64,000 nt of DNA. Origin: an uncultured Candidatus Saccharibacteria bacterium (lineage in GTDB: Bacteria; Patescibacteriota; Minisyncoccia; Phycocordibacterales; UBA9973). A program made the translations under genes and the position numbers. Shown here one piece after another: positions 42,387-59,675 of the stretch (positions within the stretch are counted from its first letter, which is position 1; the number at the start of each line of letters is the position of its first letter). Location: the NCBI GenBank assembly GCA_964361705.1, contig CAYIBP010000003.1:5606-69605 (forward strand). The letters are read 5' to 3'. The notes beneath the pieces were generated by a model. The model was not told the origin of the DNA and did not search any database. It was given only the letters and a program-made list of their open reading frames with translations.

Positions 42387-42395
42387 CACCGAATG

Positions 42396-42401
42396 ATTAT
42401 A
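42396..42401 (-). promoter_or_regulatory. -10 box TATAAT 9 nt upstream of the truB ATG
   Basis: Minus strand reads GTATATAAT-CATTCGGTG-ATG. Confidence 0.4.
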
Positions 42402-42445
42402 TACGACTTTCTTTTTTATAGAAATAAGGTAAATTAGATATAGCC

Positions 42446-42532
42446 GGAGGCGTCGCATAGTGGTCTAGTGCACCACCTTGGAAAGGTGGCAGGCTCGAAA
42501 GGGTCTCGTGAGTTCAAATCTCACCGCCTCCG
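42446..42532 (+). tRNA. tRNA-Ser (anticodon GGA)
   Basis: Acceptor GGAGGCG/CGCCTCC; 3-bp D-stem; anticodon arm CCACC-TTGGAAA-GGTGG; long variable arm; T-arm GTGAG-TTCAAAT-CTCAC; discriminator G. Confidence 0.85.
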
Positions 42533-42551
42533 CACGAATTTGAAAGAATTT

Positions 42552-43712
42552 ATGTCCCATAATAATTTAAACTCAAAAAACAAATTGATAAGCGAAAGTC
42601 TAACGGTCCGACTAAACACGCTGGCAAATCAACTCAAATCTGAAGGCAAGAAGATAATAAACCTCACTGCAGGAGAACTCGATTTCCCTACTCCGTCTTA
42701 TATACAACAAGAAGTAAAGAACAAACTGTCTCTGAACAAATACACTCCCACCACAGGGTTTCTGGATTTGCGTCAAGCTTTGGCAAGACAGGTATTCAAA
42801 GAATATAAATGGCAAGTCACACATCAAAATGTGGCAGTAACATCAGGATGCAAACAAGCGCTCTTTGAGAGTTTGTTCGCAATACTCAAAAAGGACGATG
42901 AAGTCATAGTCCCATCACCTGATTGGGTGACATACAGATACCAGATCATTTTAAATGATGCTGTGCCTGTGATCGTGCCACTCGATAAAGATTTCGATCT
43001 GGATGTGGAAAAAATAAAAAAAGCGATCACTAAAAAAACAAAAGCAATAATACTAAATAGTCCCAATAACCCCACCGGCTCTATATATAGTACAAAAAAA
43101 CTTCTGGAATTAAAGAAAATTTTAAAAGAAAAAGATATATATGTAATAGTAGATGACACTTACAGCAAAATCGTGTATGACGCGTCTTATAAATCTCCGG
43201 CGCTTTTTATGCCAGATGAAAGATATCTGATCTTGGTAAACAGTTTTTCTAAAAGCCAAGCACTGACTGGCTGGAGGATAGGATATGTAATAGCCGACAA
43301 AGAAATCATAAATGCAATATCTTCTTATCAGAGCCACACCACAGGCAATGCTCCAATACTGTCGCAGATCGCTGCGCAAAAAATATTGGAAAAAGGAGAC
43401 AAGACTGAAAGATTTGTAAAAGTACTAAAGAAACAAAGAGACCTAGCTGATAAAATATTAAAAAATATATCTGGGATTTCCTACACAGTTCCAAAAGGCG
43501 CTTTTTATTATTTCATAGATGTGTCTAAGATCGAAAAAAACACAGAAAAGTTTTGCGAAGAACTTCTGAAATCGGGATTGGCGTTGGTTCCCGGTGAAGC
43601 TTTTGGTTATCCCGGATTTGTGAGATTGTCATTTTCAACTTCGACAAAAAATCTGATCGAGGGTATTAAAATATTTAAAAAGTTCTGCGAAAACTATAAA
43701 AACCATGATTAA
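42552..43712 (+). CDS. Class I/II PLP-dependent aminotransferase (aspartate aminotransferase-like)
   Basis: PLP-lysine motif SFSKSQALTGWRIGY. The start is moved to the ATG at 42552 because the ORF-track start at 42468 overlaps tRNA-Ser. The stop overlaps the ppcA ATG. Confidence 0.85.
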   Translation: MSHNNLNSKNKLISESLTVRLNTLANQLKSEGKKIINLTAGELDFPTPSYIQQEVKNKLSLNKYTPTTGFLDLRQALARQVFKEYKWQVTHQNVAVTSGCKQALFESLFAILKKDDEVIVPSPDWVTYRYQIILNDAVPVIVPLDKDFDLDVEKIKKAITKKTKAIILNSPNNPTGSIYSTKKLLELKKILKEKDIYVIVDDTYSKIVYDASYKSPALFMPDERYLILVNSFSKSQALTGWRIGYVIADKEIINAISSYQSHTTGNAPILSQIAAQKILEKGDKTERFVKVLKKQRDLADKILKNISGISYTVPKGAFYYFIDVSKIEKNTEKFCEELLKSGLALVPGEAFGYPGFVRLSFSTSTKNLIEGIKIFKKFCENYKNHD

Positions 43713-45207
43713 AATTCCAAGAACAATGGCAACACAGCATCCTGATAATGCCAAAGCTCCGTATTGGGAACAAGATGGCGACACTTTTGTGAGCGCAAAA
43801 GAAGAACCAGCAGAATGCGTAGATGCATTTCAAAATCTAAATGTAGAAGAATTTATGTGGGACTGGGAAGGCAAATTTGCAGAAGAAGCGGTGATAGACA
43901 GGTTGTTTCATAAATATTTTGATTACTTCAAAGAAAACCAGCTTGGACTAAAGAAAAGACTCACTTTTCGCATACCAAACATTTGGCAGGAAAAAGGCTA
44001 CAGTCTGATCCGCGCATTGATGGTAATATTGACCAGTGAAGATTTTGCGCGAGATTTGAAATTTCATTCACCTCCCTTGTTTGAAGTCATTTTGCCGATG
44101 ACAGAGAATGCAAAACAACTTATCTTTATTCAGAAATCATTCCAAGAATTGGCAAAGATAAAATCAAAGATATTCAACCAGTCTGAAAAAAATGCTCAAT
44201 ATATAAATATAATTCCCCTTTTTGAAGATGTACACACGCAAATAAATGCAAAGAGAATTCTGATAGAGTACATAAAACTCCATAAAAGAACTTTTGGCTT
44301 CAAGCCAAAATATTTGCGCGTATTTATAGCTCGCAGTGACCCAGCCATGTCTTCAGGCATGGTATCCACAGTGCTTGCCAACAAGATAATCCTCTCTGAT
44401 CTTTGCGAATTAGAAAAAGAATCCGGCATACCCATATACCCTATCTTGGGCGCAGGCTCTCTGCCTTTTCGCGGAGGACTTTCACCTTTGACCATGAAAG
44501 AATTTGATGAAGAGTACAGAGGAATACATACCATAACAATCCAATCAGCTTTCAGATACGACTACAAACTCTCTTCAGTCAAAAAAGCCATAAAATATTA
44601 CAATCAGCAAACTATCCGCAAGCCAGAAATCATTTCTAGCGAAGAGCGAAGCAAGTTACTGAGAATAATAAACTTGTTTGAAAAAGAATATAAGGCGAAT
44701 CTAAAAAAGATCTTGCCTGATGTTTCTTTTGTATTCAATTCTTTCCCAAGAAGAAGGGAGAGGCACCTGCATATAGGGCTCCTCTCTTATGGTAGGAAAA
44801 TACATGGTGTAAATATGCCACGCGCTATCACATTTACCGGATCTTTTTATTCATTGGGTATTCCGCCAGAGTTTTTAGACGTAGGAGCTATTTTATCACT
44901 CACAGACAAGGAAGTAGCCTTGGTAAATAAATTTTATAAAAATACCAAAGGTGCCCTTTCGCATGCTGGACGATTTTTAAATCGAAACAATCTGCGCAAA
45001 CTAGGTAAAAAATCAAAAAGTTGGGCAAAAATTGAAAAAGATATAGAACAAACCGAGAATTTTCTAAAGATTAAATTCAAAACTCAAAGTAAAGACGACA
45101 TAGCTCACCTTAAACTCACAGGCATGCTTCTGAAATCAAAGAAAAATCCGAAAAAGATAAAGCAAATCATAAATAAAACCGGAATCCTGAGAAAAAGTCT
45201 AGGATAA
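43705..45207 (+). CDS. ppcA: Archaeal-type phosphoenolpyruvate carboxylase
   Basis: N-terminus MIKIPRTMATQHPDN is the hallmark start of atPEPC; about 500 aa is typical for the archaeal-type enzyme. Confidence 0.8.
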   Translation: MIKIPRTMATQHPDNAKAPYWEQDGDTFVSAKEEPAECVDAFQNLNVEEFMWDWEGKFAEEAVIDRLFHKYFDYFKENQLGLKKRLTFRIPNIWQEKGYSLIRALMVILTSEDFARDLKFHSPPLFEVILPMTENAKQLIFIQKSFQELAKIKSKIFNQSEKNAQYINIIPLFEDVHTQINAKRILIEYIKLHKRTFGFKPKYLRVFIARSDPAMSSGMVSTVLANKIILSDLCELEKESGIPIYPILGAGSLPFRGGLSPLTMKEFDEEYRGIHTITIQSAFRYDYKLSSVKKAIKYYNQQTIRKPEIISSEERSKLLRIINLFEKEYKANLKKILPDVSFVFNSFPRRRERHLHIGLLSYGRKIHGVNMPRAITFTGSFYSLGIPPEFLDVGAILSLTDKEVALVNKFYKNTKGALSHAGRFLNRNNLRKLGKKSKSWAKIEKDIEQTENFLKIKFKTQSKDDIAHLKLTGMLLKSKKNPKKIKQIINKTGILRKSLG

Positions 45208-45231
45208 AATAGATATTTCCCATCCAAAAAT

Positions 45232-45272
45232 ACAAAAGCCCCATATAGATACAATATCTATACAGGGGAGAT
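45232..45272. terminator. Bidirectional intrinsic terminator between convergent ppcA and the GC-rich gene
   Basis: CCCC-a-TATAGATA-caa-TATCTATA-ca-GGGG followed by ATTTTTA on the plus strand and by a T-rich run on the minus strand. Confidence 0.55.
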
Positions 45273-45310
45273 TTTTACGATAATCTCAAAAACGTAAAAT
45301 GAAAACTTGC

Positions 45311-46060
45311 TCAGCTTGCGACGGGCTCTGCAGCAATCTCTTCGGGCCTGCAAGCAACAATTGCCACGAATAACTTCTTCGTTGGCGAAGAAAGTGGTAA
45401 AATTTCGCTTGTGATTTTGCCCAAATGAGAGCGTAGCAATGTAAAATTGCTAGCTCCAGTATCTGTCCCAAAAAATGCCAGAGGAGACCCATTCAGAGCC
45501 TCCTTAAAATCATTGACATCAAAAGACGCGATATTTCGAGCCGTAGTTGCTCCAGCAAGGCAAAATCCTAAACCGCGCCTGCGAAAAGATTTGGCAATTT
45601 CACCTGCCGTTCTCCCTTCGCCACTGACAGCCACAACCGCAAGTTTTTCGTCGTCCAGAAGAAAAGCCGGATTTTCCCTGAAGAGCTTCAGGGCATTGAG
45701 AGCTTGCGCGTAATCGTCTTTGATTTCGGCCTCAGCCAAAATCGACGCGGCCTGCGTCCCCGTGACGGCTTGAAGGTTGAGAGGTTGCCTAGCGCGCGGA
45801 TCAAAAGCGGTCCTAGTGCCAATAGGAACCGGCGAAAGTTCTTCGTCCGGCAACTTTGTTGACGAAAATTCTTCTTGTTCTTGAGATAACAATCCGTGGA
45901 TAAAAGCCTCGAACTTTGCCTTGAACGCATAAGGACTGCTGATAATCCAATCGTTCAGGGTTTCGAATTCTTCCTCCGAGAGTTCCATCATCTTAAGCCT
46001 CTCAGCGAAGCTTCTAATAATATCTCTTCTGAGATCCCAAATGATCAGTTTTTTTAGCAT
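45311..46060 (-). CDS. Hypothetical protein encoded in a compositionally foreign GC-rich segment
   Basis: 249 aa from the ATG at 46060, which sits 11 nt after a perfect AAGGAG Shine-Dalgarno. The GTG start at 46099 in the ORF track is less likely. Local GC is about 55-60% against about 30% around it. No confident domain assignment. A possible Rossmann-like segment (LAVVAVSGEGRTAGEIAKSF...GFCLAGATTARNIA) is a weak call. Confidence 0.6.
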   Translation of the reverse strand: MLKKLIIWDLRRDIIRSFAERLKMMELSEEEFETLNDWIISSPYAFKAKFEAFIHGLLSQEQEEFSSTKLPDEELSPVPIGTRTAFDPRARQPLNLQAVTGTQAASILAEAEIKDDYAQALNALKLFRENPAFLLDDEKLAVVAVSGEGRTAGEIAKSFRRRGLGFCLAGATTARNIASFDVNDFKEALNGSPLAFFGTDTGASNFTLLRSHLGKITSEILPLSSPTKKLFVAIVACRPEEIAAEPVAS

Positions 46061-46116
46061 GGCTCTTTTCTCCTTAGAGTTTAGCCATTTTACTAACACT
46101 ACGCGGGATTGGGTGC

Positions 46117-46274: not shown

Positions 46275-48805
<2,531 letters not shown>

Positions 48806-48809
48806 TTTA

Positions 48810-49421
48810 TTATTCTATCCAGTTATATAAATACTCTGTAAGTACGATGCTGTGTGTACCTGACTGTTGACTCCAAGACACCCTTGAATACACTTTTACT
48901 CTATCCACAACTGAAGTATCCGCCCATGTAGTACGAATAAATCCAGAATCAACGCCATTGGCAGGATTCGTGCTGTAATTGCCATTATTAAAATACAAAT
49001 GACAATTGCTTGGATTTTCAGCACACTTAAACACAGAGATCGCATTGGTCTGGTTTACTATCGCAATATTGAAACCACAAAGTCCAGTTTCATTTGAGCT
49101 TGGGGGCTGACTTCCACTGCATTTGGTATTTGAAATACCTGTAAAATTAAACCTAAAATCATTCCAATCTGTTGGATTGCTGGAAAATAGCATATAAGCG
49201 TTTCTTTTGTTCAAGAAGTATTCTATACCTTCTTGAGCCAAATATGTGGCAGTAATTTTTTTCTTTGCGTATTCTATATCAGAAAGTCCATTGCCCAACA
49301 CAGACATCAAAGACACAATGGATAAAGAAAATATCGCAACAGCAACAAGCGTTTCAATCAAAGTAAAACCTTGTTTGGTATTTTTGATATTTATATTTTT
49401 TTGCGTAGAAAAATTATTCAT
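48810..49421 (-). CDS. Minor pilin/pseudopilin (GspI/PilV-like)
   Basis: QGFTLIETLVAVAIFSLSIVSLM prepilin N-terminus. Confidence 0.7.
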   Translation of the reverse strand: MNNFSTQKNINIKNTKQGFTLIETLVAVAIFSLSIVSLMSVLGNGLSDIEYAKKKITATYLAQEGIEYFLNKRNAYMLFSSNPTDWNDFRFNFTGISNTKCSGSQPPSSNETGLCGFNIAIVNQTNAISVFKCAENPSNCHLYFNNGNYSTNPANGVDSGFIRTTWADTSVVDRVKVYSRVSWSQQSGTHSIVLTEYLYNWIE

Positions 49422-49427
49422 GGTTTT

Positions 49428-50039
49428 TTATTGTATATCTACTAACCGTTGTGATATGGTGGTTTGCAAGGCAAAAGGCGTCTTAATATTTTTATAAAAA
49501 ATATCTCCCATGAGTCTGATCCTCACCATGGGTTGCGCATCGTCTCCAGCTTCGGCGCCACTGACTATGAATTTAGATCCACTACCTATCAACACATCGC
49601 TTGTATTTAATGTTGCCCACGTAATTCCTCCATCTGTTGACTTCTCTATGTTAGGAGGAACGATCTTGTATATCCATTGATTACTAGTGTCATCATACAC
49701 AAATTCTTCCGGTTCAAATACAATCTGCGCACTTCCATTCAAACAACTCACAGGATCTTCACTTGCGGCTTCTCCAGCAAGACCACAATGATAGAAGAAT
49801 CCTGTTCTTAAGTTCCTAGACATATCTTCCATTATAAAACTCAAACTATCCATAATAGAACGCATATCTTCCGATTTCCTATGAACTAAATTTGCATTTA
49901 GAAGCGAATCCATGCCCACCATAGTAACCACCAGAAAAATAGAAACGGCAATCATGGTTTCTATAATAGTATATCCGCTAGTTTTTAGTTTCTTTCTTTT
50001 TTCTTTCATATTTTGTTTTTTAAAAAATATTTTCATCAC
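49428..50039 (-). CDS. Minor pilin/pseudopilin (GspJ/PilW-like)
   Basis: SGYTIIETMIAVSIFLVVTMV prepilin N-terminus. Confidence 0.7.
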   Translation of the reverse strand: MMKIFFKKQNMKEKRKKLKTSGYTIIETMIAVSIFLVVTMVGMDSLLNANLVHRKSEDMRSIMDSLSFIMEDMSRNLRTGFFYHCGLAGEAASEDPVSCLNGSAQIVFEPEEFVYDDTSNQWIYKIVPPNIEKSTDGGITWATLNTSDVLIGSGSKFIVSGAEAGDDAQPMVRIRLMGDIFYKNIKTPFALQTTISQRLVDIQ

Positions 50040-50052
50040 AATAAAATATAAT

Positions 50053-50709
50053 TTAATCTATATCTATCCTGCCGGAAGAATACACCTTTATCGTGGAGCC
50101 AAGAGCGTTTGGCGATACCACATCTATGGCTACATATTCTATCTTACACGAAGGGCCAAGTGAAGGAGTGGCTTTTATATTGGCAAGCGAACTCGGTCTT
50201 TTAAAAGTAATGGTTATATTGTTTGTCGTAGCCGGACATCCCGTGCCAGAAATTCTAAGAGAAGAAATAAAATTACCTTTTGTGATGTCTATTTTATCAA
50301 GACATTCTTGATTGCAAGTGGAATTACCTATAGTGGGACCAGTATAAGAACCGTTGTTATCAAGATCCACAAAATATACAAATCTTTTGTTGTTATTATT
50401 ATCGAGATTGAAACGCAAACCATAAGAAGGTTTCCATGTTGTCCCTGCGGCCAGGTTTAGCTTGCCAGACATCGAAGATCTCTGTGCTTCTACGATTTGG
50501 AGAGCAATATCATTTGCTAATACCTTGACATCTACCCTGCCCTGAAACCCTCTGTAATCAAAAAGCACCACAGAAGTCATAACAGAAAAAATACTGAGCA
50601 CTATTATGAGTTCGACATAGGTCATGCCTGCTTTGAGGTTTTTAAATTTCCCAAGATGACAGCAACCTTGCCATTTGTTTCTTGTGTTTTTTATAGATGA
50701 TGTTTCCAT
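50053..50709 (-). CDS. Minor pilin/pseudopilin (GspH/FimT-like)
   Basis: KAGMTYVELIIVLSIFSVMTSVVL prepilin signal with E+5. Confidence 0.7.
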   Translation of the reverse strand: METSSIKNTRNKWQGCCHLGKFKNLKAGMTYVELIIVLSIFSVMTSVVLFDYRGFQGRVDVKVLANDIALQIVEAQRSSMSGKLNLAAGTTWKPSYGLRFNLDNNNNKRFVYFVDLDNNGSYTGPTIGNSTCNQECLDKIDITKGNFISSLRISGTGCPATTNNITITFKRPSSLANIKATPSLGPSCKIEYVAIDVVSPNALGSTIKVYSSGRIDID

Positions 50710-50734
50710 ATACTGAAACTCTTTTCAATCAAAA

Positions 50735-51535
50735 TTAAAAGCCAGATGGCAAAGCACTAAATATTCCAGACTGAAGCATAAAAGCAATAAAAGCTCCAAG
50801 GGCTAAAAACGGCGCAAACGGTAACTCACTTTTTGCTTTGTATTTTTTAGAAAATAAAAGTAGTAAAATCCCAACGATCGCTCCTGACCAGAATGCCATA
50901 ACTGCGCCAGTGGCTATCTTTGCAAAGCCAATGACCCAACCTATACCGATGGCAAGCTTTGCATCTCCTAACCCCATCCATTCACCGCGTGACAGGAGCC
51001 AGAGTAAAGCAAAAGGCAACGCAAGCACAACTCCAGAAATAAACTCTGTGAGAGGCGGTATGTTCGGATCGAGGTGATATCCAGAAAAGAAAAACAGGCC
51101 CAAGAAAGCAAAAACCCCAAAGAACAAAACCAAGGAGTCGGGGATGATCTTGTGTCTTAAATCATACACCGCCATTACAAGAAGCAAAGAAAACATCGTC
51201 ACATAATATGCGTAAGATACAGAAAAATCCAAGGTACTCAAATAAAAAGTATCCTGAAACTTTAGAAACACTAAAGCAAACATGCCTCCAGTGACAAATT
51301 CAACTAAAGGATATTGCCAAGAAATTCGTGTCTTGCAATGTCTGCACCTCCCTTTCAAAAACAGAAAACTAAGCACGGGAATAAGCTCACGCCATCCGAG
51401 AATATGCCTGCAAGAAAGACAACCGCTCCGCCCGCCAAAAGTGCAATTAGTGTTGAACCTTAGTATCACCACATTCAAAAAGCTTCCAATAATCAATCCA
51501 AGGCCGAAAAAAATAATCGTGAGTAATAAAGTCAT
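50735..51535 (-). CDS. pilD: Prepilin peptidase (A24 family)
   Basis: N-terminal tetra-Cys (CLSCRH...CRHCKTRISWQYPLVE) and a polytopic membrane core; 266 aa. Confidence 0.8.
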   Translation of the reverse strand: MTLLLTIIFFGLGLIIGSFLNVVILRFNTNCTFGGRSGCLSCRHILGWRELIPVLSFLFLKGRCRHCKTRISWQYPLVEFVTGGMFALVFLKFQDTFYLSTLDFSVSYAYYVTMFSLLLVMAVYDLRHKIIPDSLVLFFGVFAFLGLFFFSGYHLDPNIPPLTEFISGVVLALPFALLWLLSRGEWMGLGDAKLAIGIGWVIGFAKIATGAVMAFWSGAIVGILLLLFSKKYKAKSELPFAPFLALGAFIAFMLQSGIFSALPSGF

Positions 51536-51592
51536 ATTTAATAACTTTATTATAACAAATATAGAGCTTGAAGACCAACAGATACGTCCCGC

Positions 51593-54500
51593 CTACTGGT
51601 TAGTATTTACAGCATTTTTCAGCACCTCTTTGAATTTCAAGCCTTTTACATCCAAACTAGCATTTGCATCTACGGTAAACAATTTGCTTTTAGAAAACTT
51701 TGACATCACTGTATTGGAATCGGTAACATCGTTGCCCACTTGCCTATCTACATCCATCACCACATCTTCTGTCGGATCTATTTTCAAAGTATAGGCTAAA
51801 CCATCCGGCACGGAAATGAATTTCGTACTACCTATCTCTGTGTATCTGGTCTGTGGTATCTCTTGCTTCACTTTTCCGGTCGTAAAGTCTACACCAGTAT
51901 ATCTGCCTTTTGCATCCACTATACCCACCCTACCCTCAGTAAAGAGATGATAATGTATGCGTGGAGCAAATACGGTCGTAGGATAATGTTTGACCACCAC
52001 ATCTTCTGAATCAGAAAACGGAACACCTGTGATTTTTGATTTTATAAAATCACGCAGGTTAGAAACCTCCATTATGTCTTTGTGATTTCTCTCTACAGCA
52101 AACCAAGTATCATACTTGATCAGATCAACCCACCATTTTTCCACATTTAGATTTGAGTCTGACATCCACAACGCAGAGGAAGTAACTACAGTATTGTCCC
52201 CTTCGGAAATATATTTTGGTTTGTAAGTTACATCTTCTTGCCCGCTTTTTACAAATGTTTTGTACTCTATACCTGACACAGTCTCTTTACCCCAGCCCGC
52301 CAACTGCACGACTTTTGTACTTGATGAAGGTTGCCAAGAATCCAATACATTATGTACGGACTCCGCCTTTGGAAAAAGTATCGAATTGCCTTTTGCGGGC
52401 TTTTTCACTTCATCAAATAGAGGCTCTGCCCTGCCGTCGCCACCGAGCACATAATCTTTTAATTCTGAAAAATTATTCACTTGCAAACCATATTTTGAAA
52501 TCTGTGGATTAAACAATGCATGATTCTGAAAAGTCACGATCTGATCCGGAGCTATCACTGGATCATTAATGCTAAAATAACTCACCGAAGGCAAGAGATT
52601 GTAAGCTGTGGGCATATTTTTTGCCAGCCATCTATTTCTCTTTGCCGTCATCACGAAACCCACTGGACCCATAGACTCTCCATGCAACATATTGATCAGA
52701 GCTTGCGGAGTACCTATCTGAGGTACACCCACAAAGATTACCTGATCAATCTTGTCATATAGAGGATCGTTTGTTTCCTTTAGCTTTTGTATCAAAGCTT
52801 TGATAACCAAGCCGCCATTTGAATGACCTATGAGAGTGACCCTGCCAGTCCTAGATGTAGCCTGCAACTCTTTTAATTTTTTCAAAATAAAGGACTCGGA
52901 GAAGGTTTGATTATTGTTATAAAAAAGTTTTCCATTCACATTCAAGTCACCTTTTACGACAATATCCTCCAATGCCACGCGCCAGTCGTAAGGTATAAAA
53001 TGATAATCATTGATTGTGCCTTCTTTTTTCCAATCCTTCAAATCAAAAAGAAATGAATTGTAAATATTAAAACCCGAAATCTCATCCACGATACCTGTTT
53101 CCCTTTCATATCCATCGCTGATTTTCTGCGTATCATTCTTTGTGTAAACATTTGAATTTTTGCCATTTGTATTCAAAGTTAGCTTGGATTGCAAAGCGTC
53201 ATCAGCCGAAACCCATAGTTCTTTTTCACCATTAGATTCTTGCAAATACAACCGAGAACCCATTATTCCCGGGAAAAACATCACATTTGAAAAACAATTT
53301 ATTTTGCATATTTCCTTAGTAAGCCAAGGAGTAAAATTTACATTATCAGAAACCTTGTCACCTTTACCATTTGGATTCTTGGTCAGATGATAAGGTCCAG
53401 ATGAATCTCCCCAATAGTTATCTTTGGCATTTACCAGTACTTTTGAATAAACACCAGTTTGATGACCAAATATATCACTATTCGTTATATTCAGAGACCC
53501 ACGCTCTACATAAATACCATAAGATTGATTATTTTTTATCTGTGAAGAACTAATATTTAAAGAACCATAGTACTGTCTAATACCATACATTTCATTATCT
53601 TCGATAGAACTATTAACGAGAGACACATTGCCACCACTGTTATATATAACACCATTATTTGATCCACTATAGGAGTAATACCAACGACCTCCGTACTTCA
53701 TAGCAACATGAGAAAGCTGACTTACACTTTTATCTCCAAAAAATAAATGATTCCAGTCACCTGCGCTAGGAGCGATATCACTTTGATCATTATTTGTATC
53801 GCCACCTACAGTATCATCATTAATAGATGTAAAATATACTTTCTGCTCATTGGTACCATTAATTATCAGGTTACCTTTAACACTCACACTCATGTTTCTT
53901 TTAAACTTTACAATAACTCCAGGATCAATATTCAGAGTTACACCCAAAGGAACAGAAAAAACATAATCGGATGAATTGTAATTCGTTGTACCAGAACCAT
54001 TAATAATATAGGGCATATTATCCTTGGTCCATGTTTGATTTTGAGATAATTTACCAGATATATAAATACCATCCGACTTAGTGGAAGTGTTACCGGAATG
54101 TAAGAAATTACGAACACCATTTAAGTTTATATATATTCCTCCATCAAAAACATTATTTGTTAGTGTAATTAAATCTTCAATTTTATTCTGTCCACCTCCA
54201 CCGTAAAAACCCCAATAATCTCGAAGAACTGTTCCTGAAATATTCGTGGTGCCAGCATAGGTCTTCACCCCATAAAGCACATTATTCTCAACCAAACTGT
54301 CTGTCACAGAAATATTACCACCGTGATTAGAAATAGATCCAACAGTCTCAGCATAATAGCTATAGTAATAACTACCTCCATATCTGATAACAGTATTATT
54401 AAATACACCCGTACTCCCTTGATGAAAAAGAATATTTGCCCAATCTCCTACTTGTGGTGCGGTATCCAAACCGTCATTGTTTGTGTCACCACCTATAGTA

Positions 54501-54850
54501 TCATCATTATAAGAAGTAAAATATACCTTCTGTTCTGAAGTGCCATTTACTCTTAAATTACCATTTATGGAAATACCATATTTACCAAAAATCTTAACAA
54601 TTACACCGGGCTCAATCGTCAAAGTCACGCCAGACGAGACAAGCGGAACATGAGTAAAACCTCGCAATATATCATAGCTATAAATAACATAAGGGCTGTT
54701 TTCTAGCGTCCATGTCGTATCAGTATCGATTGGCGCAGAGATAGTTGTGCTGGCATCTGCATAATTTATATTCCAGAGAAAAAGAAAACTGAAAAATAAA
54801 ACCATCAACGCAAGTTTAATCTCGTTTTTTAAAAAAGTCATAATAGTCAA
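51593..54850 (-). CDS. Large secreted protein: two tandem right-handed beta-helix modules followed by a C-terminal lipase-like alpha/beta-hydrolase domain
   Basis: 1085 aa with a signal peptide. An approximately 270-aa unit is duplicated (TW..N.PY.I...GVTL.I.PGVIVK...NGT.EQKVYFTS.NDDT.GGDTNND...GDW). Pectate-lyase-like repeats follow (NVSLVNSSIEDNEMYGI, NISSSQIKNNQSYGIYVERGSLNITNSDI). The C-terminus has FPGIMGSRLY and the lipase nucleophile elbow VTLIGHSNGGLV. Confidence 0.7.
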   Translation of the reverse strand: MTIMTFLKNEIKLALMVLFFSFLFLWNINYADASTTISAPIDTDTTWTLENSPYVIYSYDILRGFTHVPLVSSGVTLTIEPGVIVKIFGKYGISINGNLRVNGTSEQKVYFTSYNDDTIGGDTNNDGLDTAPQVGDWANILFHQGSTGVFNNTVIRYGGSYYYSYYAETVGSISNHGGNISVTDSLVENNVLYGVKTYAGTTNISGTVLRDYWGFYGGGGQNKIEDLITLTNNVFDGGIYINLNGVRNFLHSGNTSTKSDGIYISGKLSQNQTWTKDNMPYIINGSGTTNYNSSDYVFSVPLGVTLNIDPGVIVKFKRNMSVSVKGNLIINGTNEQKVYFTSINDDTVGGDTNNDQSDIAPSAGDWNHLFFGDKSVSQLSHVAMKYGGRWYYSYSGSNNGVIYNSGGNVSLVNSSIEDNEMYGIRQYYGSLNISSSQIKNNQSYGIYVERGSLNITNSDIFGHQTGVYSKVLVNAKDNYWGDSSGPYHLTKNPNGKGDKVSDNVNFTPWLTKEICKINCFSNVMFFPGIMGSRLYLQESNGEKELWVSADDALQSKLTLNTNGKNSNVYTKNDTQKISDGYERETGIVDEISGFNIYNSFLFDLKDWKKEGTINDYHFIPYDWRVALEDIVVKGDLNVNGKLFYNNNQTFSESFILKKLKELQATSRTGRVTLIGHSNGGLVIKALIQKLKETNDPLYDKIDQVIFVGVPQIGTPQALINMLHGESMGPVGFVMTAKRNRWLAKNMPTAYNLLPSVSYFSINDPVIAPDQIVTFQNHALFNPQISKYGLQVNNFSELKDYVLGGDGRAEPLFDEVKKPAKGNSILFPKAESVHNVLDSWQPSSSTKVVQLAGWGKETVSGIEYKTFVKSGQEDVTYKPKYISEGDNTVVTSSALWMSDSNLNVEKWWVDLIKYDTWFAVERNHKDIMEVSNLRDFIKSKITGVPFSDSEDVVVKHYPTTVFAPRIHYHLFTEGRVGIVDAKGRYTGVDFTTGKVKQEIPQTRYTEIGSTKFISVPDGLAYTLKIDPTEDVVMDVDRQVGNDVTDSNTVMSKFSKSKLFTVDANASLDVKGLKFKEVLKNAVNTNQ

Positions 54851-54895
54851 TATTATACAATAATTAGAGAAAAGTCAAATTTTATATTTGGTCTT

Positions 54896-55378
54896 CTATA
54901 ACGAGTTCACAGCAAGACTACAATCCATTCCAGAAACCAGACTTGCAAAAGCTATCTTTTTCGAATTTCCGTGATTATCAACACACCAAGCATTTGAAGA
55001 ATCGGACTTTAATGGTATTGCTAAAACATAATTATTACCATTTGCTTGACATTTTGCATCCAATCCGCCATTTGCGTCTATCGCAGCCTCAATTTGTTCT
55101 TGAACAGTAGCATCATTAAAGACATTTGTTGCTGGGGTAACAGCTATTATAGTTCCACAATTAGTTATAAAAGACCGATTACCATAACTGCCCGATAAAT
55201 TACCATAAATAATTTCTGCTTGTGTTTTTAAATTCGCTAAATTAGATTGAATACTGGCATCACTTCCACTTTTCTTTGCGCTATTTAGCGACCCTAAAAC
55301 CACAGACGCCAATATACCAATAATGGCGACAACTACCAAGAGTTCAATCAATGTAAAACCTTTCTTTAGATTCTTCAT
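54896..55378 (-). CDS. Type IV major pilin paralog
   Basis: True start MKNLKKGFTLIELLVVVAIIGILASVVLGSL at 55378; the 53-aa N-terminal extension in the ORF track is probably spurious. Confidence 0.75.
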   Translation of the reverse strand: MKNLKKGFTLIELLVVVAIIGILASVVLGSLNSAKKSGSDASIQSNLANLKTQAEIIYGNLSGSYGNRSFITNCGTIIAVTPATNVFNDATVQEQIEAAIDANGGLDAKCQANGNNYVLAIPLKSDSSNAWCVDNHGNSKKIAFASLVSGMDCSLAVNSL

Positions 55379-55496
55379 AAAAATTTTAAGTAAAAAATAC
55401 TTTCTAATTAATGAAGAAATTATACCAAATACAAAAAACAAAAACCACCCTATAGAGATGGTTTTTGTAAGAAACACTGTAAACAAAGAGTAGTAA

Positions 55497-55976
55497 CTAT
55501 GAAGCTGGACAAGCAGCTGATGAGCCAGCAAGAACACTTACTCTACCTGCAGAAGTCCCAAGACTATCCACGCACCAATATAAATTACCATTATCTGCGG
55601 CTTTTAGAGGAACTGATATAGCCCAAGCTGATGATGTTGCATGACAGTTTGAAGTTGTTGCTGTTTGTGCCGTTGCGTACGTAAGAACTATACCACCACT
55701 AACACCACTAGCCGAATGCGCTGCTGTAAGAGCTTTTGAAATCGTTCCATCCTGTACACCATTACAAACAGTATCATAACTATTTGGATTTGCTCCATCA
55801 TAGACTATCTCTGCTTGAGCGCGAATATTTGCAAGATTTGCCTTTATCGCGGCATTATTACCTTTACTTCTCGCTGTATTCAAAGACCCCAAGACTACAG
55901 ACGCCAAGATACCGATGATGGCGACGACGACCAAGAGTTCAATTAATGTAAAACCTTTTTTAAGATTATTCTTCAT
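55497..55976 (-). CDS. Type IV major pilin paralog
   Basis: MKNNLKKGFTLIELLVVVAIIGILASVVLGSLN has an N-terminus nearly identical to the neighbouring pilin; 159 aa. Confidence 0.8.
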   Translation of the reverse strand: MKNNLKKGFTLIELLVVVAIIGILASVVLGSLNTARSKGNNAAIKANLANIRAQAEIVYDGANPNSYDTVCNGVQDGTISKALTAAHSASGVSGGIVLTYATAQTATTSNCHATSSAWAISVPLKAADNGNLYWCVDSLGTSAGRVSVLAGSSAACPAS

Positions 55977-56145
55977 AATTTATTTTATAAAAGTTAATAA
56001 ATACTTTAACGAAATTTCGACTCGTTTTAATATATGTATTATAACTTCTATTATGAAGAGGTTGCAACAAGGTTATCCACACCAAAATTTTGGCGTTTAA
56101 AAAAATATGAGAAAAATTATGTTAAGAAAAAGTTTTTATGCGATA

Positions 56146-57243
56146 TTATTCACCCACAAAGGTAAAATGAGCTCCCTCGGGCGACCATTTGCCGGCCGCG
56201 TCCGCATTGTCCCAAAGTCTTATTACCCATTCATACTCAACGCCAGATTTCAAAGCAGGACCACTATATTCTACTGGTATTATCAATCTTTGTCCGCTAA
56301 AGGTCTCCATGATAGGATAGCCCGGTACTTCTTTTACACCAGAGTCCCATTGGCTTTTATCTCCACCCTTGATTATCAAACGATACTTTTTGACCATATC
56401 TCCTGTATCAGGATCGTTGAAAATTACAGAGAATTCAGGAGTTGGATCAGTCACTTCTTTTGGATTTATTTTATCTTCCACTAGAGGCTCTGTAGGAAAA
56501 GTCGGGGCGTTATTATTCACATTATCAAGGACAGCAGAGACAGTTTTTGAACTCATATTGCCGGCGTTGTCCTTTGCTTCAATATGCAAATAGAAAACTC
56601 CATTACCTTCCGATACGGTCGTATAGCAATATTTTCTGCTAAAAGCCCCCGTTGGCTTACCTATCGGATTTTGATCAACGATAAATCTATAAGTAGAATC
56701 ATCATCTGGGGAAGCACACCAATTCCAATATTTTGTCTTCTTGGCTACTGTATCGTCCACTAAGTCTGGATCACTTAAATCTGGCGGAGTCGTATCTGCC
56801 ACCGAATTTACTAATAAACCGTTCACAAGAGTAAAGGCAAAACTGCTGTGTGTTTGCTTGCAATCATTTCCTCCATAAGCTTTAAAGACCACAGCGTAAG
56901 TGCCGTTGGCTCCTGGAGCTTTCATCTGAAAAGATTCAGTGCCGGTGGTGCCTGCCTTGTGGTTTGCGGTGTCTACACACACCCAAGGAGCTTTACCTAT
57001 TTTATACATAGTAGAAGCCCAGTTACCAAGGTTCTTTGACTCTACGGTAACGCTCGCATTCACCATTTCACTCTTCTTTACAGATGCGCTGCTGACACCA
57101 TTAAGTGTAGCACTTATAATATCTCTCGCTGCAGAAACTTGCGAAAAAGGCACAAAAAAAGCGCTAACTAGGAGCGCGATCATGGCAACATTACCAAGTA
57201 CATATTTAATGAAAACCCTATAATATAAAAATCGTTTTTTCAT
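56146..57243 (-). CDS. Secreted Ig/FN3-like repeat protein in the pilus locus
   Basis: 365 aa; signal peptide; beta-rich, Thr/Asp/Pro-rich repeats; no enzymatic motif. Confidence 0.5.
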   Translation of the reverse strand: MKKRFLYYRVFIKYVLGNVAMIALLVSAFFVPFSQVSAARDIISATLNGVSSASVKKSEMVNASVTVESKNLGNWASTMYKIGKAPWVCVDTANHKAGTTGTESFQMKAPGANGTYAVVFKAYGGNDCKQTHSSFAFTLVNGLLVNSVADTTPPDLSDPDLVDDTVAKKTKYWNWCASPDDDSTYRFIVDQNPIGKPTGAFSRKYCYTTVSEGNGVFYLHIEAKDNAGNMSSKTVSAVLDNVNNNAPTFPTEPLVEDKINPKEVTDPTPEFSVIFNDPDTGDMVKKYRLIIKGGDKSQWDSGVKEVPGYPIMETFSGQRLIIPVEYSGPALKSGVEYEWVIRLWDNADAAGKWSPEGAHFTFVGE

Positions 57244-57330
57244 AGGCTTTATTAATTTGTTAAAACCCTATTAATGCCATTATTAGACTCTATAAGACTA
57301 ATACTGTCAAAGATTGACTGTGGATAACTT

Positions 57331-58539
57331 TTATTGTATTCCGCCTGTCAAATTATATATAGGAATGAGTACAGACACCAAAAGTACACCGACTCCCAGA
57401 CCTAAGACCACTATCATGACCGGCTCTATGAGTCCAACCAGAGTATCTATGGCATCATCAACTTCTCTTTTATAGAAATCAGTAAGGGTTTTCAATATTT
57501 GACCAAGCGAACCTGTCTCCTCACCTATCTTTATCATTTGAGTCATTATGCTAGGAACATAATCCTTGTGTCTTTCAAACGTTGCAGAAAAAGCAAGGCC
57601 GGACTTCACGCCGTCTTGAACATCTTGCATTATTTTTTTGTATATCTGACTGTCCACTACCTCGGATGTGATCTCTATAGCTCGGACAATAGGCACACCA
57701 GAAGTTAACATTGTATCCATATTGTCGGCTATGCGAGAAAGGTAGAATTTTTTGTAAAGATTCCCGACTGCAGGCGTAGAAAGACGCATCTTGTCCAGAT
57801 ATATCCTACCCTTTTCAGTAACAGAAAGTCTCCAAAGCCATATGCCCAAAAGTATAAAGAAAATAATTACTAGGAAACCATAATCAACAAAAAAATTCGA
57901 AAGAGCAATGACAAATTTGGTGTACAAAGGCGGTTCTTGTCCTGAATCAAGTATTATAGCTGAAAGCTTTGGTATCACCACCACAAACATCAGAGCCATC
58001 ACCACAAAAAAAGTGAAAATAACAAAGACGGGATAAATCAAAGCATTCTTGGTCTTTGAAGTCAGAGCATATTGGCGATTTAAATAATTTGCCAGATGAT
58101 CAAAAGTTTCATTGAGTTTACCTGTTTCTTCTCCGACACGAACCATATTCACATAAAAATTTGAAAAGATATCAGAATGTTTTGCTAAAGCACCAGAAAT
58201 AGAAAATCCGGCTTGCAGATCATCTGCTATCTCTGTCAATTTCTTGCTTAAAGTTTTATTTTCAGTGTTCGTGGCAAGTATGGTAAAAGCCTTTAAAGCA
58301 GAAACCTGCGCTTCAAAGAGAGTTGATATCTGACGAGAAAGAATCACTACTTCTTTTGGAGAAACTCTCTTCTCAAGAGAAAACGATAGAAAAGATTTTC
58401 TCTTTCCTTCCTCAACAATAGAAACGATTATCAAACCGCGCCTCTGCAAACCATTGATGGCCATATCGCGACTCTGCGCGTCTATCTCGCCTTCTTTGTT
58501 TAGTCCCCTTTCATCTACCGCTTTGTATTTAAATAGCAT
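57331..58539 (-). CDS. pilC: Type IV pilus / T2SS platform protein (GspF/PilC family)
   Basis: 402 aa with two T2SS_F repeats and 3 TM segments. Confidence 0.85.
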   Translation of the reverse strand: MLFKYKAVDERGLNKEGEIDAQSRDMAINGLQRRGLIIVSIVEEGKRKSFLSFSLEKRVSPKEVVILSRQISTLFEAQVSALKAFTILATNTENKTLSKKLTEIADDLQAGFSISGALAKHSDIFSNFYVNMVRVGEETGKLNETFDHLANYLNRQYALTSKTKNALIYPVFVIFTFFVVMALMFVVVIPKLSAIILDSGQEPPLYTKFVIALSNFFVDYGFLVIIFFILLGIWLWRLSVTEKGRIYLDKMRLSTPAVGNLYKKFYLSRIADNMDTMLTSGVPIVRAIEITSEVVDSQIYKKIMQDVQDGVKSGLAFSATFERHKDYVPSIMTQMIKIGEETGSLGQILKTLTDFYKREVDDAIDTLVGLIEPVMIVVLGLGVGVLLVSVLIPIYNLTGGIQ

Positions 58540-58545
58540 GGAAAA

Positions 58546-59604: not shown

Positions 59605-59675
59605 ATTACAAGTATATTACAAAAGAACGACAAGAAAAAGAGGGCACTCTGAAATTTGTGGACAACCGCGTGAAG

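What the first reader, a model, noticed from the sequence alone, without database searches (positions are those of the whole stretch)
42552..45207. Aminotransferase-archaeal-type PEP carboxylase operon: a two-gene route from PEP and CO2 to aspartate
ppcA opens with the diagnostic MIKIPRTMATQHPDN of the archaeal-type PEPC, a family rare in bacteria. Its ATG overlaps the stop of a class I aminotransferase. Coupling oxaloacetate formation directly to transamination suggests that an anaplerotic aspartate-producing module is kept in an otherwise reduced metabolism. A tRNA-Ser precedes the pair and a clean bidirectional terminator follows it.
Basis: partly seen in the sequence, partly recalled or inferred. 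Interest (0 to 1): 0.5.

Follow-up and report, generated by a model that had tools for sequence, protein, structure and literature searches.

The report
Aspartate aminotransferase–archaeal-type PEP carboxylase operon
A tiny groundwater bacterium of the Patescibacteria (CPR) carries two overlapping genes that most likely turn phosphoenolpyruvate plus bicarbonate into aspartate; both enzymes are of known kinds, but the pair is widely conserved as a unit across this bacterial group.

Summary
A tRNA-Ser(GGA) lies at 42446-42533. A class-I aminotransferase lies at 42552-43712 and a 500-aa archaeal-type PEP carboxylase (atPEPC) at 43705-45207. The PEPC start codon overlaps the aminotransferase stop by 8 nt (ATGATTAA), and a hairpin terminator follows at 45239-45267.

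The PEPC passes the curated cut-offs of PF14010 and TIGR02751 and is not a bacterial-type PEPC. The aminotransferase is closest to solved class-Ib aspartate aminotransferases (Thermotoga, Thermus). It keeps all pyridoxal-phosphate (PLP) residues and the Lys that binds the distal carboxylate, but it scores below NCBIfam's equivalog cut-off.

The contig comes from a Hainich groundwater Patescibacteria genome. Among 55 CPR-type species-representative loci, 31 have an aminotransferase directly adjacent on the same strand, usually with a 4-nt ATGA overlap. All 18 in the Saccharimonadia clade do. The flanks differ between loci, and distances in the two genes co-vary (r=0.91).

The two-step PEP to oxaloacetate to aspartate reading is therefore well supported comparatively, but it is biochemically untested. 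"Rare in bacteria" is outdated, and the tRNA linkage is incidental. This is an ordinary metabolic module of moderate interest.

The parts
42387..42445 (.). 59-nt divergent intergenic region between the truB start (42386, - strand) and tRNA-Ser. It is the presumed promoter region for tRNA-Ser, the aminotransferase and PEPC (inferred).
   Evidence: Only 18 nt separate the tRNA 3' end from the aminotransferase ATG, so there is no room for a separate promoter. The scan found no sigma-70 consensus match here. Co-transcription with the tRNA is an inference and was not shown.
42446..42533 (+). tRNA-Ser (anticodon GGA), immediately upstream of the pair
   Evidence: ARAGORN. Rfam RF00005, 56 bits, E=1.7e-10. 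The linkage to the pair is not conserved in relatives.
42552..43712 (+). Class-I (fold type I) PLP aminotransferase of 386 aa, resembling a subgroup-Ib aspartate aminotransferase
   Evidence: PF00155 at 7e-68. The best NCBIfam model is NF041091, archaeal AspAT, at 389.9 bits, below the 550 cut-off. The best PDB matches are 1O4S (T. maritima AspAT, 2.9e-77) and 1BKG/1BJW (T. thermophilus AspAT, ~2e-70). K234, D202, Y204, N173, R242 and R358 are conserved, and K101 in GCKQAL aligns with the GGKQAL Lys of Thermus AspAT.
43705..43712 (+). 8-nt overlap ATGATTAA between the PEPC start and the aminotransferase stop (translational coupling)
   Evidence: Sequence read. Across 31 adjacent CPR-type pairs, one Apilactobacillus pair (L079) and the window, the gap is -4 in 16, -8 in 3 and -11 in 1.
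43705..45207 (+). Archaeal-type phosphoenolpyruvate carboxylase (atPEPC, PpcA/PepcA family), 500 aa
   Evidence: PF14010 at 471.5 bits, full length 4-500. TIGR02751 equivalog at 514.5 bits against a cut-off of 146. PDB 3ODM at 1.1e-51, with QHPDN, RIPN, ARSD, GSLPFRG, QSA-RYD and PRAI-FTG-Y-LG-PPE aligned. It keeps all 99 invariant columns of a 14-sequence family alignment.
45239..45267 (.). Hairpin between the convergent genes; an intrinsic-terminator-like element usable from both strands
   Evidence: The terminator scan hits on the - strand with 13 pairs. The RNA fold of 45205-45300 gives -16.7 kcal/mol, z=-4.28. A T-run (AGATTTTT) follows on the + strand and CTTTTG follows on the - strand.

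Best explanation
The two genes form a translationally coupled operon that makes L-aspartate from a glycolytic intermediate.

1. The atPEPC irreversibly carboxylates phosphoenolpyruvate with bicarbonate, giving oxaloacetate and phosphate.
2. The AspAT-like class-Ib aminotransferase immediately transaminates the unstable oxaloacetate to L-aspartate. The donor is most likely L-glutamate, which releases 2-oxoglutarate.
3. Aspartate probably feeds back on the PEPC. The characterised Clostridium atPEPC is competitively inhibited by aspartate.

In a Patescibacteria cell with little other central metabolism, this supplies aspartate and whatever is derived from it. It also incorporates inorganic carbon heterotrophically.

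Shown here: family membership of the PEPC, the AspAT-like active-site signature, the overlap, the deep conservation and the co-evolution of the pair. Inferred: substrate specificity, the amino donor, co-transcription with the upstream tRNA, feedback inhibition and the fate of aspartate.
For: PEPC identity:
- PF14010 and TIGR02751 score above their curated cut-offs.
- Homology to 3ODM has the core motifs aligned.
- All family-invariant residues are retained.
- PEPC chemistry is irreversible, so oxaloacetate is the product (review PMC8100219).

Aminotransferase identity:
- The top solved relatives are all aspartate aminotransferases of subgroup Ib.
- PLP Lys, Asp, Tyr, Asn and both Arg are conserved.
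- The Lys aligned with the Thermus AspAT GGKQAL Lys is present in the window and in all 26 window-type aminotransferases directly upstream of a PEPC.

Coupling:
- The window has an 8-nt stop/start overlap.
- 31 of 55 CPR-type loci have a same-strand adjacent aminotransferase. In 19 of these the two genes overlap by 4-11 nt.
- All 18 loci in the Saccharimonadia clade have the pair.
- The next most frequent neighbour cluster occurs in only 13 loci, so the flanks vary.
- Pairwise identities of the aminotransferase and the PEPC correlate at r=0.91, with 0 of 2000 Mantel permutations reaching that value.
- A different aminotransferase family (NF005744/PRK07568) is adjacent to atPEPC in L007, L063, L074 and L077. 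This suggests independent recruitment of a transaminase next to the enzyme.

Other:
- GC and GC3 of both genes match the window, so there is no sign of recent transfer.
- Aspartate inhibits atPEPC competitively.
- No other central-metabolism gene lies in the 64-kb window.
Against: - The aminotransferase scores 389.9 bits against a cut-off of 550 for the only AspAT equivalog model it hits best. Subgroup-Ib enzymes can also use aromatic substrates or prephenate (PDB neighbours 5WMH, 6F77 and 1DJU).
- 24 of 55 CPR-type loci, including three close relatives of the window's PEPC (L001, L026, L076), lack an adjacent aminotransferase.
- Aminotransferase homologues at about 50% identity occur in other contexts (L104, L105).
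- No aspartate-consuming enzyme, glutamate source or 2-oxoglutarate sink was seen in this genome, because only 64 kb is available.
- CPR bacteria are generally thought to scavenge amino acids.
- No expression or activity data exist.
Confidence: 0.7

Rival explanations
1. The PEPC mainly feeds a redox or fermentation branch: PEP to oxaloacetate to malate, then to pyruvate or succinate (a 'malate shunt'). On this view the neighbouring aminotransferase is a general-purpose enzyme, and aspartate is only a side product.
For: A malic enzyme lies convergent to the PEPC in the close relative L005, with a short 6PGDH-like dehydrogenase upstream. An HMGL-like gene follows the PEPC in L076. 6-phosphogluconate dehydrogenase and lactonase genes flank the pair in Saccharimonadia. 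The malate shunt is an established route at this node.
Against: No malate dehydrogenase or malic enzyme lies in the window. The malic-enzyme neighbour is unique to one locus. The only neighbour that is consistently conserved and translationally coupled is the aminotransferase.
Confidence: 0.15
2. The aminotransferase works on a different substrate pair, for example pyruvate/alanine, aromatic keto acids or prephenate. The linkage would then reflect co-regulation of two PEP/pyruvate-node enzymes rather than a two-step pathway.
For: The score is below the AspAT equivalog cut-off. Related solved enzymes include an aromatic aminotransferase (1DJU) and bifunctional aspartate/prephenate aminotransferases (5WMH). 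A 52%-identical homologue sits in a sugar-modification cluster next to a 2-hydroxyacid dehydrogenase.
Against: The Lys at the distal-carboxylate position is conserved in every window-type PEPC-linked copy. All top solved matches are AspATs. A second aminotransferase family was independently placed next to atPEPC. Oxaloacetate is the only keto acid that the partner enzyme produces.
Confidence: 0.1
3. The adjacency is a chance or neutral gene-order relic with no functional coupling, or one of the genes is decaying.
For: Gene order in small genomes can persist by inertia. The pair is absent in about 44% of the CPR-type loci sampled.
Against: Both ORFs are intact and keep all catalytic residues. 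The pair persists across lineages in which the aminotransferase has diverged to 34-40% identity, while the flanks are reshuffled. The ATGA-type overlap is maintained in 16 of 33 adjacent pairs.
Confidence: 0.03

Closest known systems
Archaeal-type PEP carboxylase (PpcA/PepcA: Methanothermobacter thermautotrophicus, Sulfolobus solfataricus, Clostridium perfringens PDB 3ODM; Pfam PF14010, TIGR02751)
   Same: About 500 aa, against 883 aa for E. coli Ppc. It has the N-terminal IPxTMxTQHPDN motif and the conserved RIPN, ILPM, ARSDPA, GSLPFRGG, QSAFRYD and PRAItFTgxfYSlGxPPE motifs. The HMM match is full-length and above curated cut-offs.
   Different: The host is a Patescibacteria (CPR) bacterium. 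The gene is translationally coupled to an aminotransferase. Within the sampled loci it belongs to a CPR clade separate from the Lactobacillaceae and Armatimonadota sequences. Its activity and regulation are untested.
Subgroup-Ib aspartate aminotransferases (Thermus thermophilus AspAT 1BJW/1BKG; Thermotoga maritima 1O4S)
   Same: It has fold type I and all PLP-binding and alpha-carboxylate residues. The Lys in the G-x-K-Q-A-L motif is present. From my own knowledge of the Thermus enzyme, this Lys (Lys109 in pig numbering) binds the distal carboxylate of aspartate and glutamate.
   Different: The score is below the NCBIfam equivalog cut-off (389.9 against 550). The motif is AGELDF rather than the usual GEPDF. 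Specificity has not been measured.
Bacterial Ppc plus AspC route to aspartate (E. coli), and the PEPC-AspAT step of aspartate-forming C4 photosynthesis
   Same: The chemistry has the same two steps: PEP plus bicarbonate to oxaloacetate, then oxaloacetate to aspartate (established biochemistry; for the node).
   Different: The PEPC belongs to a different family (BLASTP E=0.051 against E. coli Ppc). In E. coli, ppc sits between eptC and argE, not beside an aminotransferase. Here the two genes overlap and are co-inherited.
Cyanobacterial 2-oxoglutarate decarboxylase / succinic semialdehyde dehydrogenase bypass (OgdA/SsaD)
   Same: This applies only to the Nomurabacteria relative (L102, L103). There an acetolactate-synthase-like ThDP enzyme and an SSADH-like aldehyde dehydrogenase follow the aminotransferase and PEPC on the same strand.
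   Different: These genes are not present in this window or in the other sampled loci. The assignment of the ThDP enzyme as a 2-oxoglutarate decarboxylase was not tested. Its best PDB hits are acetolactate synthases.

Membership tests
Archaeal-type PEP carboxylase (PF14010 / TIGR02751) | Full-length match to the family models above their curated cut-offs | tested here: met
   PF14010 scores 471.5 bits (cut-off 25) over residues 4-500. TIGR02751 scores 514.5 bits (cut-off 146.05).
Archaeal-type PEP carboxylase (PF14010 / TIGR02751) | Not a member of the bacterial/plant PEPC family (PF00311); only remote core similarity | tested here: met
   No PF00311 hit at E<=0.001. BLASTP against E. coli Ppc gives E=0.051. 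hhalign aligns only the core, 167-412 against Ppc 499-758, with probability 5.9%.
Archaeal-type PEP carboxylase (PF14010 / TIGR02751) | Small subunit (55-60 kDa), against 90-110 kDa for the bacterial/plant type | tested here: met
   The protein is 500 aa. The size criterion comes from review PMC8100219.
Archaeal-type PEP carboxylase (PF14010 / TIGR02751) | Conserved N-terminal (I/V)PxxMxTQHPDN motif and conserved catalytic-core motifs shared with the solved enzyme | tested here: met
   The MIKIPRTMATQHPDN motif and all 99 invariant columns of alignment A1 are present. The motifs align with 3ODM. The N-terminus is conserved in 81 sequences.
Archaeal-type PEP carboxylase (PF14010 / TIGR02751) | Catalyses PEP + HCO3- -> oxaloacetate + Pi; competitively inhibited by aspartate; homotetramer | not testable with these tools
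   This needs purified protein. The property is known for the C. perfringens enzyme.
Aspartate aminotransferase, subgroup Ib (class I PLP aminotransferase) | Fold-type-I aminotransferase domain with the PLP Schiff-base Lys and the Asp/Tyr/Asn/Arg set | tested here: met
   PF00155 at 7e-68. In the aminotransferases next to PEPC, K234, Y204, N173 and R242 are invariant in all 38; position 202 is Asp or Glu in 37 of 38 and Cys in L078; R358 is present in 37 of 38, with a gap in L038.
Aspartate aminotransferase, subgroup Ib (class I PLP aminotransferase) | Lys at the position of Thermus AspAT 'Lys109' (GGKQAL), which replaces Arg292 for the distal carboxylate | tested here: met
   Window K101 in GCKQAL aligns with GGKQAL of 1BKG. 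The Lys is present in 28 of 38 PEPC-linked aminotransferases, including every window-type copy. The functional role of this Lys is taken from my own knowledge of the Thermus enzyme, not from a paper read here.
Aspartate aminotransferase, subgroup Ib (class I PLP aminotransferase) | Reaches the curated score of an AspAT equivalog model | tested here: not met
   NF041091 scores 389.9 bits against a cut-off of 550. NF004769 scores 270.8 against 617. It is therefore filed as 'AspAT-like class-I aminotransferase', not as a proven AspAT.
Aspartate aminotransferase, subgroup Ib (class I PLP aminotransferase) | Measured preference for aspartate/oxaloacetate with glutamate/2-oxoglutarate | not testable with these tools
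   This needs an enzyme assay.
Functionally coupled operon | Same strand, overlapping or nearly abutting reading frames | tested here: met
   The window has an 8-nt overlap. Among 33 adjacent pairs the gap is -4 in 16, -8 in 3 and -11 in 1.
Functionally coupled operon | Adjacency conserved across divergent genomes while the flanking genes change | tested here: met
   31 of 55 CPR-type loci have the pair, including 18 of 18 in the Saccharimonadia clade. The flanks are heterogeneous. The aminotransferase and PEPC distances correlate at r=0.91.
Functionally coupled operon | Single transcript covering both genes | not testable with these tools
   No transcript data are available. The 18-nt spacer after the tRNA and the downstream hairpin are consistent with one transcript.
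Intrinsic (rho-independent) terminator | G+C-rich stem-loop followed by a T tract downstream of the stop codon | tested here: inconclusive
   The hairpin at 45239-45267 has z=-4.3. The scan accepts it on the - strand only. On the + strand the stem has a 2x2 internal mismatch, although AGATTTTT follows it.

The most novel reading that the evidence does not exclude
The AspAT-atPEPC pair may be an ancient, vertically co-inherited CPR module. It would be the main, perhaps the only, de novo route to a C4 amino acid in many of these ultra-small bacteria, and their main route of inorganic-carbon incorporation. If so, heterotrophic CO2 fixation into aspartate would be a general and measurable trait of groundwater Patescibacteria. 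In some lineages (Nomurabacteria L102, L103) the module appears extended by a ThDP decarboxylase and a succinic-semialdehyde-dehydrogenase-like enzyme. These would remove the 2-oxoglutarate co-product, giving a four-gene route from glutamate plus PEP plus CO2 to aspartate plus succinate.
Probability: 0.25. Interest if true: 0.5.

Novelty: new member of a known kind. Interest (0 to 1): 0.3.

Why it matters
CPR/Patescibacteria are described as lacking most amino-acid biosynthesis and as depending on hosts. A deeply conserved, translationally coupled two-gene route from a glycolytic intermediate and bicarbonate to aspartate would be one of the few biosynthetic capacities they keep. It also gives a concrete, testable explanation for any inorganic-carbon labelling of these cells in groundwater. 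It corrects the older view that archaeal-type PEPC is rare in bacteria. Both enzymes and the chemistry are textbook, and the genes are already annotated as such in public MAGs. The finding therefore refines CPR metabolic maps rather than revealing a new mechanism.

Tried and rejected
- Reverse test by metagenome scan. I scanned metagenome contigs with the aminotransferase to see how often its orthologues are followed by a PEPC. The back-translated patterns were too specific, and only 16 distant aminotransferases (26-35% identity) came back. I replaced this with a protein search plus contig look-ups.
- Labelled phylogeny against archaeal atPEPCs. This was not possible. The 80 genome loci returned were all bacterial, and the protein libraries carry no taxonomy. 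The family question was settled with curated HMMs and a direct comparison with E. coli Ppc.
- Primary atPEPC papers (PMC524890, PMC3092815). These are not held, so I used the review PMC8100219.
- First LigA look-up. It failed because I gave wrong minus-strand coordinates. The repeat worked.
- tRNA-Ser as part of the module. Rejected, because no tRNA directly precedes the pair in the 27 pair-bearing related loci scanned.
- Recent horizontal acquisition of the pair. Rejected on composition (GC 0.363 and 0.369 against 0.369 for the window).
- Malic enzyme, ThDP enzyme or aldehyde dehydrogenase as regular members of the cluster. Rejected, because each occurs in one lineage only and none is in the window.
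- Literature searches for the operon in CPR. These found only passing mentions of PEPC. One search was swamped by clinical 'AST' papers.
- Downstream high-GC ORF. It has no match in Pfam, NCBIfam, PHROGs or PADLOC.
Full report
**What is in the sequence**

The window carries these features, in order on the + strand.
- tRNA-Ser(GGA) at 42446-42533. ARAGORN finds it and Rfam confirms it at 56 bits, E=1.7e-10.
- An ATG at 42552, 18 nt after the tRNA, that opens a 386-aa ORF ending at 43712.
- A 500-aa ORF at 43705-45207 that begins MIKIPRTMATQHPDN. Its ATG overlaps the upstream TAA within ATGATTAA, an 8-nt overlap.
- A hairpin at 45239-45267, 31 nt after the second stop. It has an A-rich 5' side and AGATTTTT on its 3' side. 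It folds at -16.7 kcal/mol, z=-4.3.

The consensus scan accepts the hairpin as a terminator only for the - strand, where the convergent ORF 45311-46099 ends. On the + strand the stem has a 2x2 internal mismatch. 'Clean bidirectional' is slightly generous.

**Start codons**

Public gene calls for the same DNA give a 375-aa aminotransferase (TTG at 42585) and a 493-aa PEPC (Met8; P0001). Both look too short.
- In 81 PEPC sequences the N-terminus M-x-x-I-P-x-T-M-A-T-QHPDN is conserved. In L028, L045 and L066 the internal Met is Ile, so the upstream start must be used there.
- The aminotransferase orthologues begin M-x-L-N-x-K-x-K-(L/I)-I-S-E-S, aligned to residues 4-16 of the window protein.

The overlap between the two genes is therefore real.

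**Identity of the carboxylase**

- The 500-aa protein matches PF14010 (PEPcase_2) over its whole length at 471.5 bits. It matches the NCBIfam equivalog TIGR02751 at 514.5 bits against a cut-off of 146. It does not hit the bacterial/plant family PF00311.
- It aligns with the only solved archaeal-type enzyme, Clostridium perfringens PepcA (3ODM), at E=1e-51. The QHPDN, RIPN, ARSD, GSLPFRG, QSA-RYD and PRAI-FTG-Y-LG-PPE motifs are matched.
- It keeps all 99 invariant columns of a 14-sequence family alignment.
- Against E. coli Ppc, taken from NC_000913.3, BLASTP gives only E=0.051. A profile comparison aligns just the catalytic core.
- Its size fits the 55-60 kDa of archaeal-type enzymes rather than the 90-110 kDa of bacterial/plant ones.

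**Identity of the aminotransferase**

- The 386-aa protein is a fold-type-I enzyme (PF00155, 7e-68).
- Its best NCBIfam model is the archaeal aspartate aminotransferase NF041091. The score is 389.9 bits, below the 550 cut-off. Histidinol-phosphate and aromatic models are not among the leading hits.
- Its best solved relatives are Thermotoga maritima AspAT 1O4S (2.9e-77) and Thermus thermophilus AspAT 1BKG/1BJW (about 2e-70).
- The PLP Lys (K234), D202, Y204, N173, R242 and the alpha-carboxylate Arg (R358) are conserved.
- K101 in GCKQAL aligns with the Lys of GGKQAL in the Thermus enzyme. From my own knowledge, that Lys ('Lys109') binds the distal carboxylate of aspartate and glutamate in subgroup Ib.

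The second refutation criterion is not met either. Because the equivalog cut-off is missed, I call the protein AspAT-like rather than a proven AspAT.

**Source and context**

- Identical genes lie on an 87.8-kb contig from a 0.1-um-filtered Hainich (well H51) groundwater metagenome.
- The closest named relatives are 'Patescibacteria group', 'Candidatus Paceibacterota', Nomurabacteria and Vogelbacteria MAGs.
- The rest of the window is housekeeping:
  - transcription, replication and repair genes: RpoB/C, DnaG, GyrB, LigA, an AddA-like helicase-nuclease and an SMC-like ATPase;
  - RNA-processing and translation genes: TrmD, TruB, RNase R, RNase III, NusB, S16, L32, ThrRS and PheS/T;
  - envelope genes: glycosyltransferases, a penicillin-binding protein and a type-IV pilus cluster.
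- The pair is the only central-metabolism locus in 64 kb.
- Its GC and GC3 (0.363/0.354 and 0.369/0.353) match the window (0.369), so recent transfer is unlikely.

**Conservation of the pair**

A scan of species-representative genomes found at least 590 loci encoding relatives of the PEPC. The best 80 were fetched with 4-kb flanks. On a PEPC distance tree, 20 loci are Lactobacillales, 5 are Armatimonadota and 55 group with CPR genomes. Some MAGs in the CPR group carry labels such as 'uncultured Gammaproteobacteria', which I take to be mislabels.

After ORF clustering, the aminotransferase family is by far the most frequent neighbour. It occurs in 39 of 81 loci, and the next cluster occurs in 13.

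Among the 55 CPR-type loci:
- 28 have an aminotransferase directly upstream on the same strand;
- 3 have one directly downstream;
- 3 loci have too little upstream sequence to judge.

All 18 members of the Saccharimonadia clade have the pair. In the window's own clade it is present in the window, L003 and L005, and absent in L001, L026 and L076. Only 1 of the 25 Lactobacillales and Armatimonadota loci has it (L079).

Among 33 adjacent pairs, the stop-to-start gap is -4 in 16, -8 in 3 and -11 in 1. The genes flanking the pair differ from lineage to lineage.

Pairwise identities of the two proteins across 27 pairs correlate at r=0.91, and 0 of 2000 Mantel permutations reach that value. The pair has therefore been inherited as a unit while the aminotransferase diverged to as little as 34% identity.

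Four CPR loci (L007, L063, L074, L077) carry a different aminotransferase family next to the PEPC. It is NF005744/PRK07568, which lacks the Lys. This suggests that a transaminase was recruited beside this enzyme more than once.

In the reverse direction, among aminotransferase homologues of at least 65% identity on contigs of 3.6 kb or more, at least 11 of 14 share a contig with a PEPC homologue. This rests on matching contig lengths, plus one direct look-up. More distant homologues (47-52%) occur elsewhere.

**Mechanism**

PEPC chemistry is irreversible, so oxaloacetate is the product. The only conserved, translationally coupled partner is an AspAT-like enzyme. The best-supported reading is therefore PEP + HCO3- to oxaloacetate, then to aspartate.
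- Glutamate is the likely amino donor.
- Feedback by aspartate on the PEPC is likely, because aspartate inhibition of atPEPC is competitive.
- The 18-nt spacer after the tRNA leaves no room for a promoter. Transcription probably starts in the 59-nt divergent region upstream of the tRNA, although no sigma-70 consensus was found there. This step is inferred.

Still unknown are the donor, the fate of 2-oxoglutarate and the consumers of aspartate.

**Rivals**

- A redox 'malate shunt' role for the oxaloacetate is suggested by a malic enzyme next to the pair in L005 and by pentose-phosphate genes in Saccharimonadia. These neighbours are sporadic and absent from the window.
- A different substrate for the aminotransferase cannot be excluded, given the sub-threshold HMM score and the broad specificity of subgroup Ib. 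The conserved Lys and the second recruited aminotransferase family argue against it.
- Chance adjacency is excluded by the comparative data.

**Comparison with what is known, and novelty**

Both enzymes belong to known families, and the two-step chemistry is textbook. Public MAG annotations already call the genes 'phosphoenolpyruvate carboxylase' and, in JGI, 'aspartate aminotransferase'.

In the searchable literature, PEPC in CPR is mentioned only in passing. It appears once as part of a supposed reverse TCA cycle (PMC12114108) and once in a metabolic cartoon (PMC9530719). I found no description of the conserved operon, but absence from this library is weak evidence.

'Rare in bacteria' was true in 2012, when PF14010 held 29 non-archaeal sequences. 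It no longer holds. The family does remain small in sequence diversity, with 508 clusters at 50% identity among 1.84 billion representatives.

I rate this a new member of a known kind, of moderate interest.

Noticed in passing
L103:1676-7395 and L102:5001-10720 (Nomurabacteria relatives): Four same-strand genes lie in a row: aminotransferase, atPEPC, a 551-aa ThDP enzyme and a 454-aa aldehyde dehydrogenase. The ThDP enzyme hits NF006187 'acetolactate synthase large subunit' at 713 bits, above its cut-off. The dehydrogenase is closest to NADP succinic-semialdehyde dehydrogenase, at 560 bits against a cut-off of 730. The last two resemble the cyanobacterial OgdA/SsaD bypass and could remove the 2-oxoglutarate made by the transamination.
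   Followed up: partly
window 45311-46099 (- strand; 249-262 aa): This convergent ORF lies just downstream of the terminator. It has no Pfam, NCBIfam, PHROGs or PADLOC match. Its GC is clearly higher than its neighbours' (0.476, GC3 0.46, against about 0.37 and 0.33-0.35). It may be foreign or lineage-specific.
   Followed up: partly
L005:893-5555: In a close relative (PEPC 70% identical), a short 6PGDH-like NAD-binding dehydrogenase of 280 aa directly precedes the aminotransferase. A malic enzyme lies convergent just after the PEPC. Together they form a small PEP/oxaloacetate/malate-node cluster.
   Followed up: partly
Saccharimonadia loci, e.g. L020:5512-6978, L030:5506-7767: A 6-phosphogluconate dehydrogenase of about 488 aa lies convergent immediately after the PEPC in most Saccharimonadia loci. 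A 6-phosphogluconolactonase often lies next to it.
   Followed up: no
L026:3910-4001: In a close relative that lacks the aminotransferase, a tRNA-Ser(GCT) ends exactly where the PEPC starts. This echoes the tRNA-Ser next to the pair in the window. Otherwise the tRNA linkage is not conserved.
   Followed up: partly
window 42552/42585 and 43705/43726: Public gene calls for this DNA use a later TTG for the aminotransferase (375 aa) and Met8 for the PEPC (493 aa). The N-termini of homologues support the longer forms, and hence the overlap.
   Followed up: yes
L011, L013, L021, L025, L032-L034, L074, L075: Several MAGs are labelled 'uncultured Gammaproteobacteria' or 'Rickettsiales' in their record titles. 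Their PEPCs and neighbourhoods group with Patescibacteria, so the taxonomic labels are probably wrong.
   Followed up: no
window 48293-61427: A large type-IV pilus cluster lies downstream of ligA. It includes a prepilin peptidase, several N-methyl pseudopilins, a PilC-like protein and a 1085-aa beta-helix protein. ORFs from 58546 onward that are probably ATPases were not scanned against any family library. The cluster is typical of episymbiotic CPR.
   Followed up: no
L105:5001-7543: An aminotransferase homologue (47% identical) is not next to a PEPC. It is convergent with a 462-aa DAO/Mqo-family oxidoreductase. That enzyme may be a malate:quinone oxidoreductase or a 2-hydroxyglutarate oxidase, either of which would produce an AspAT substrate.
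   Followed up: no
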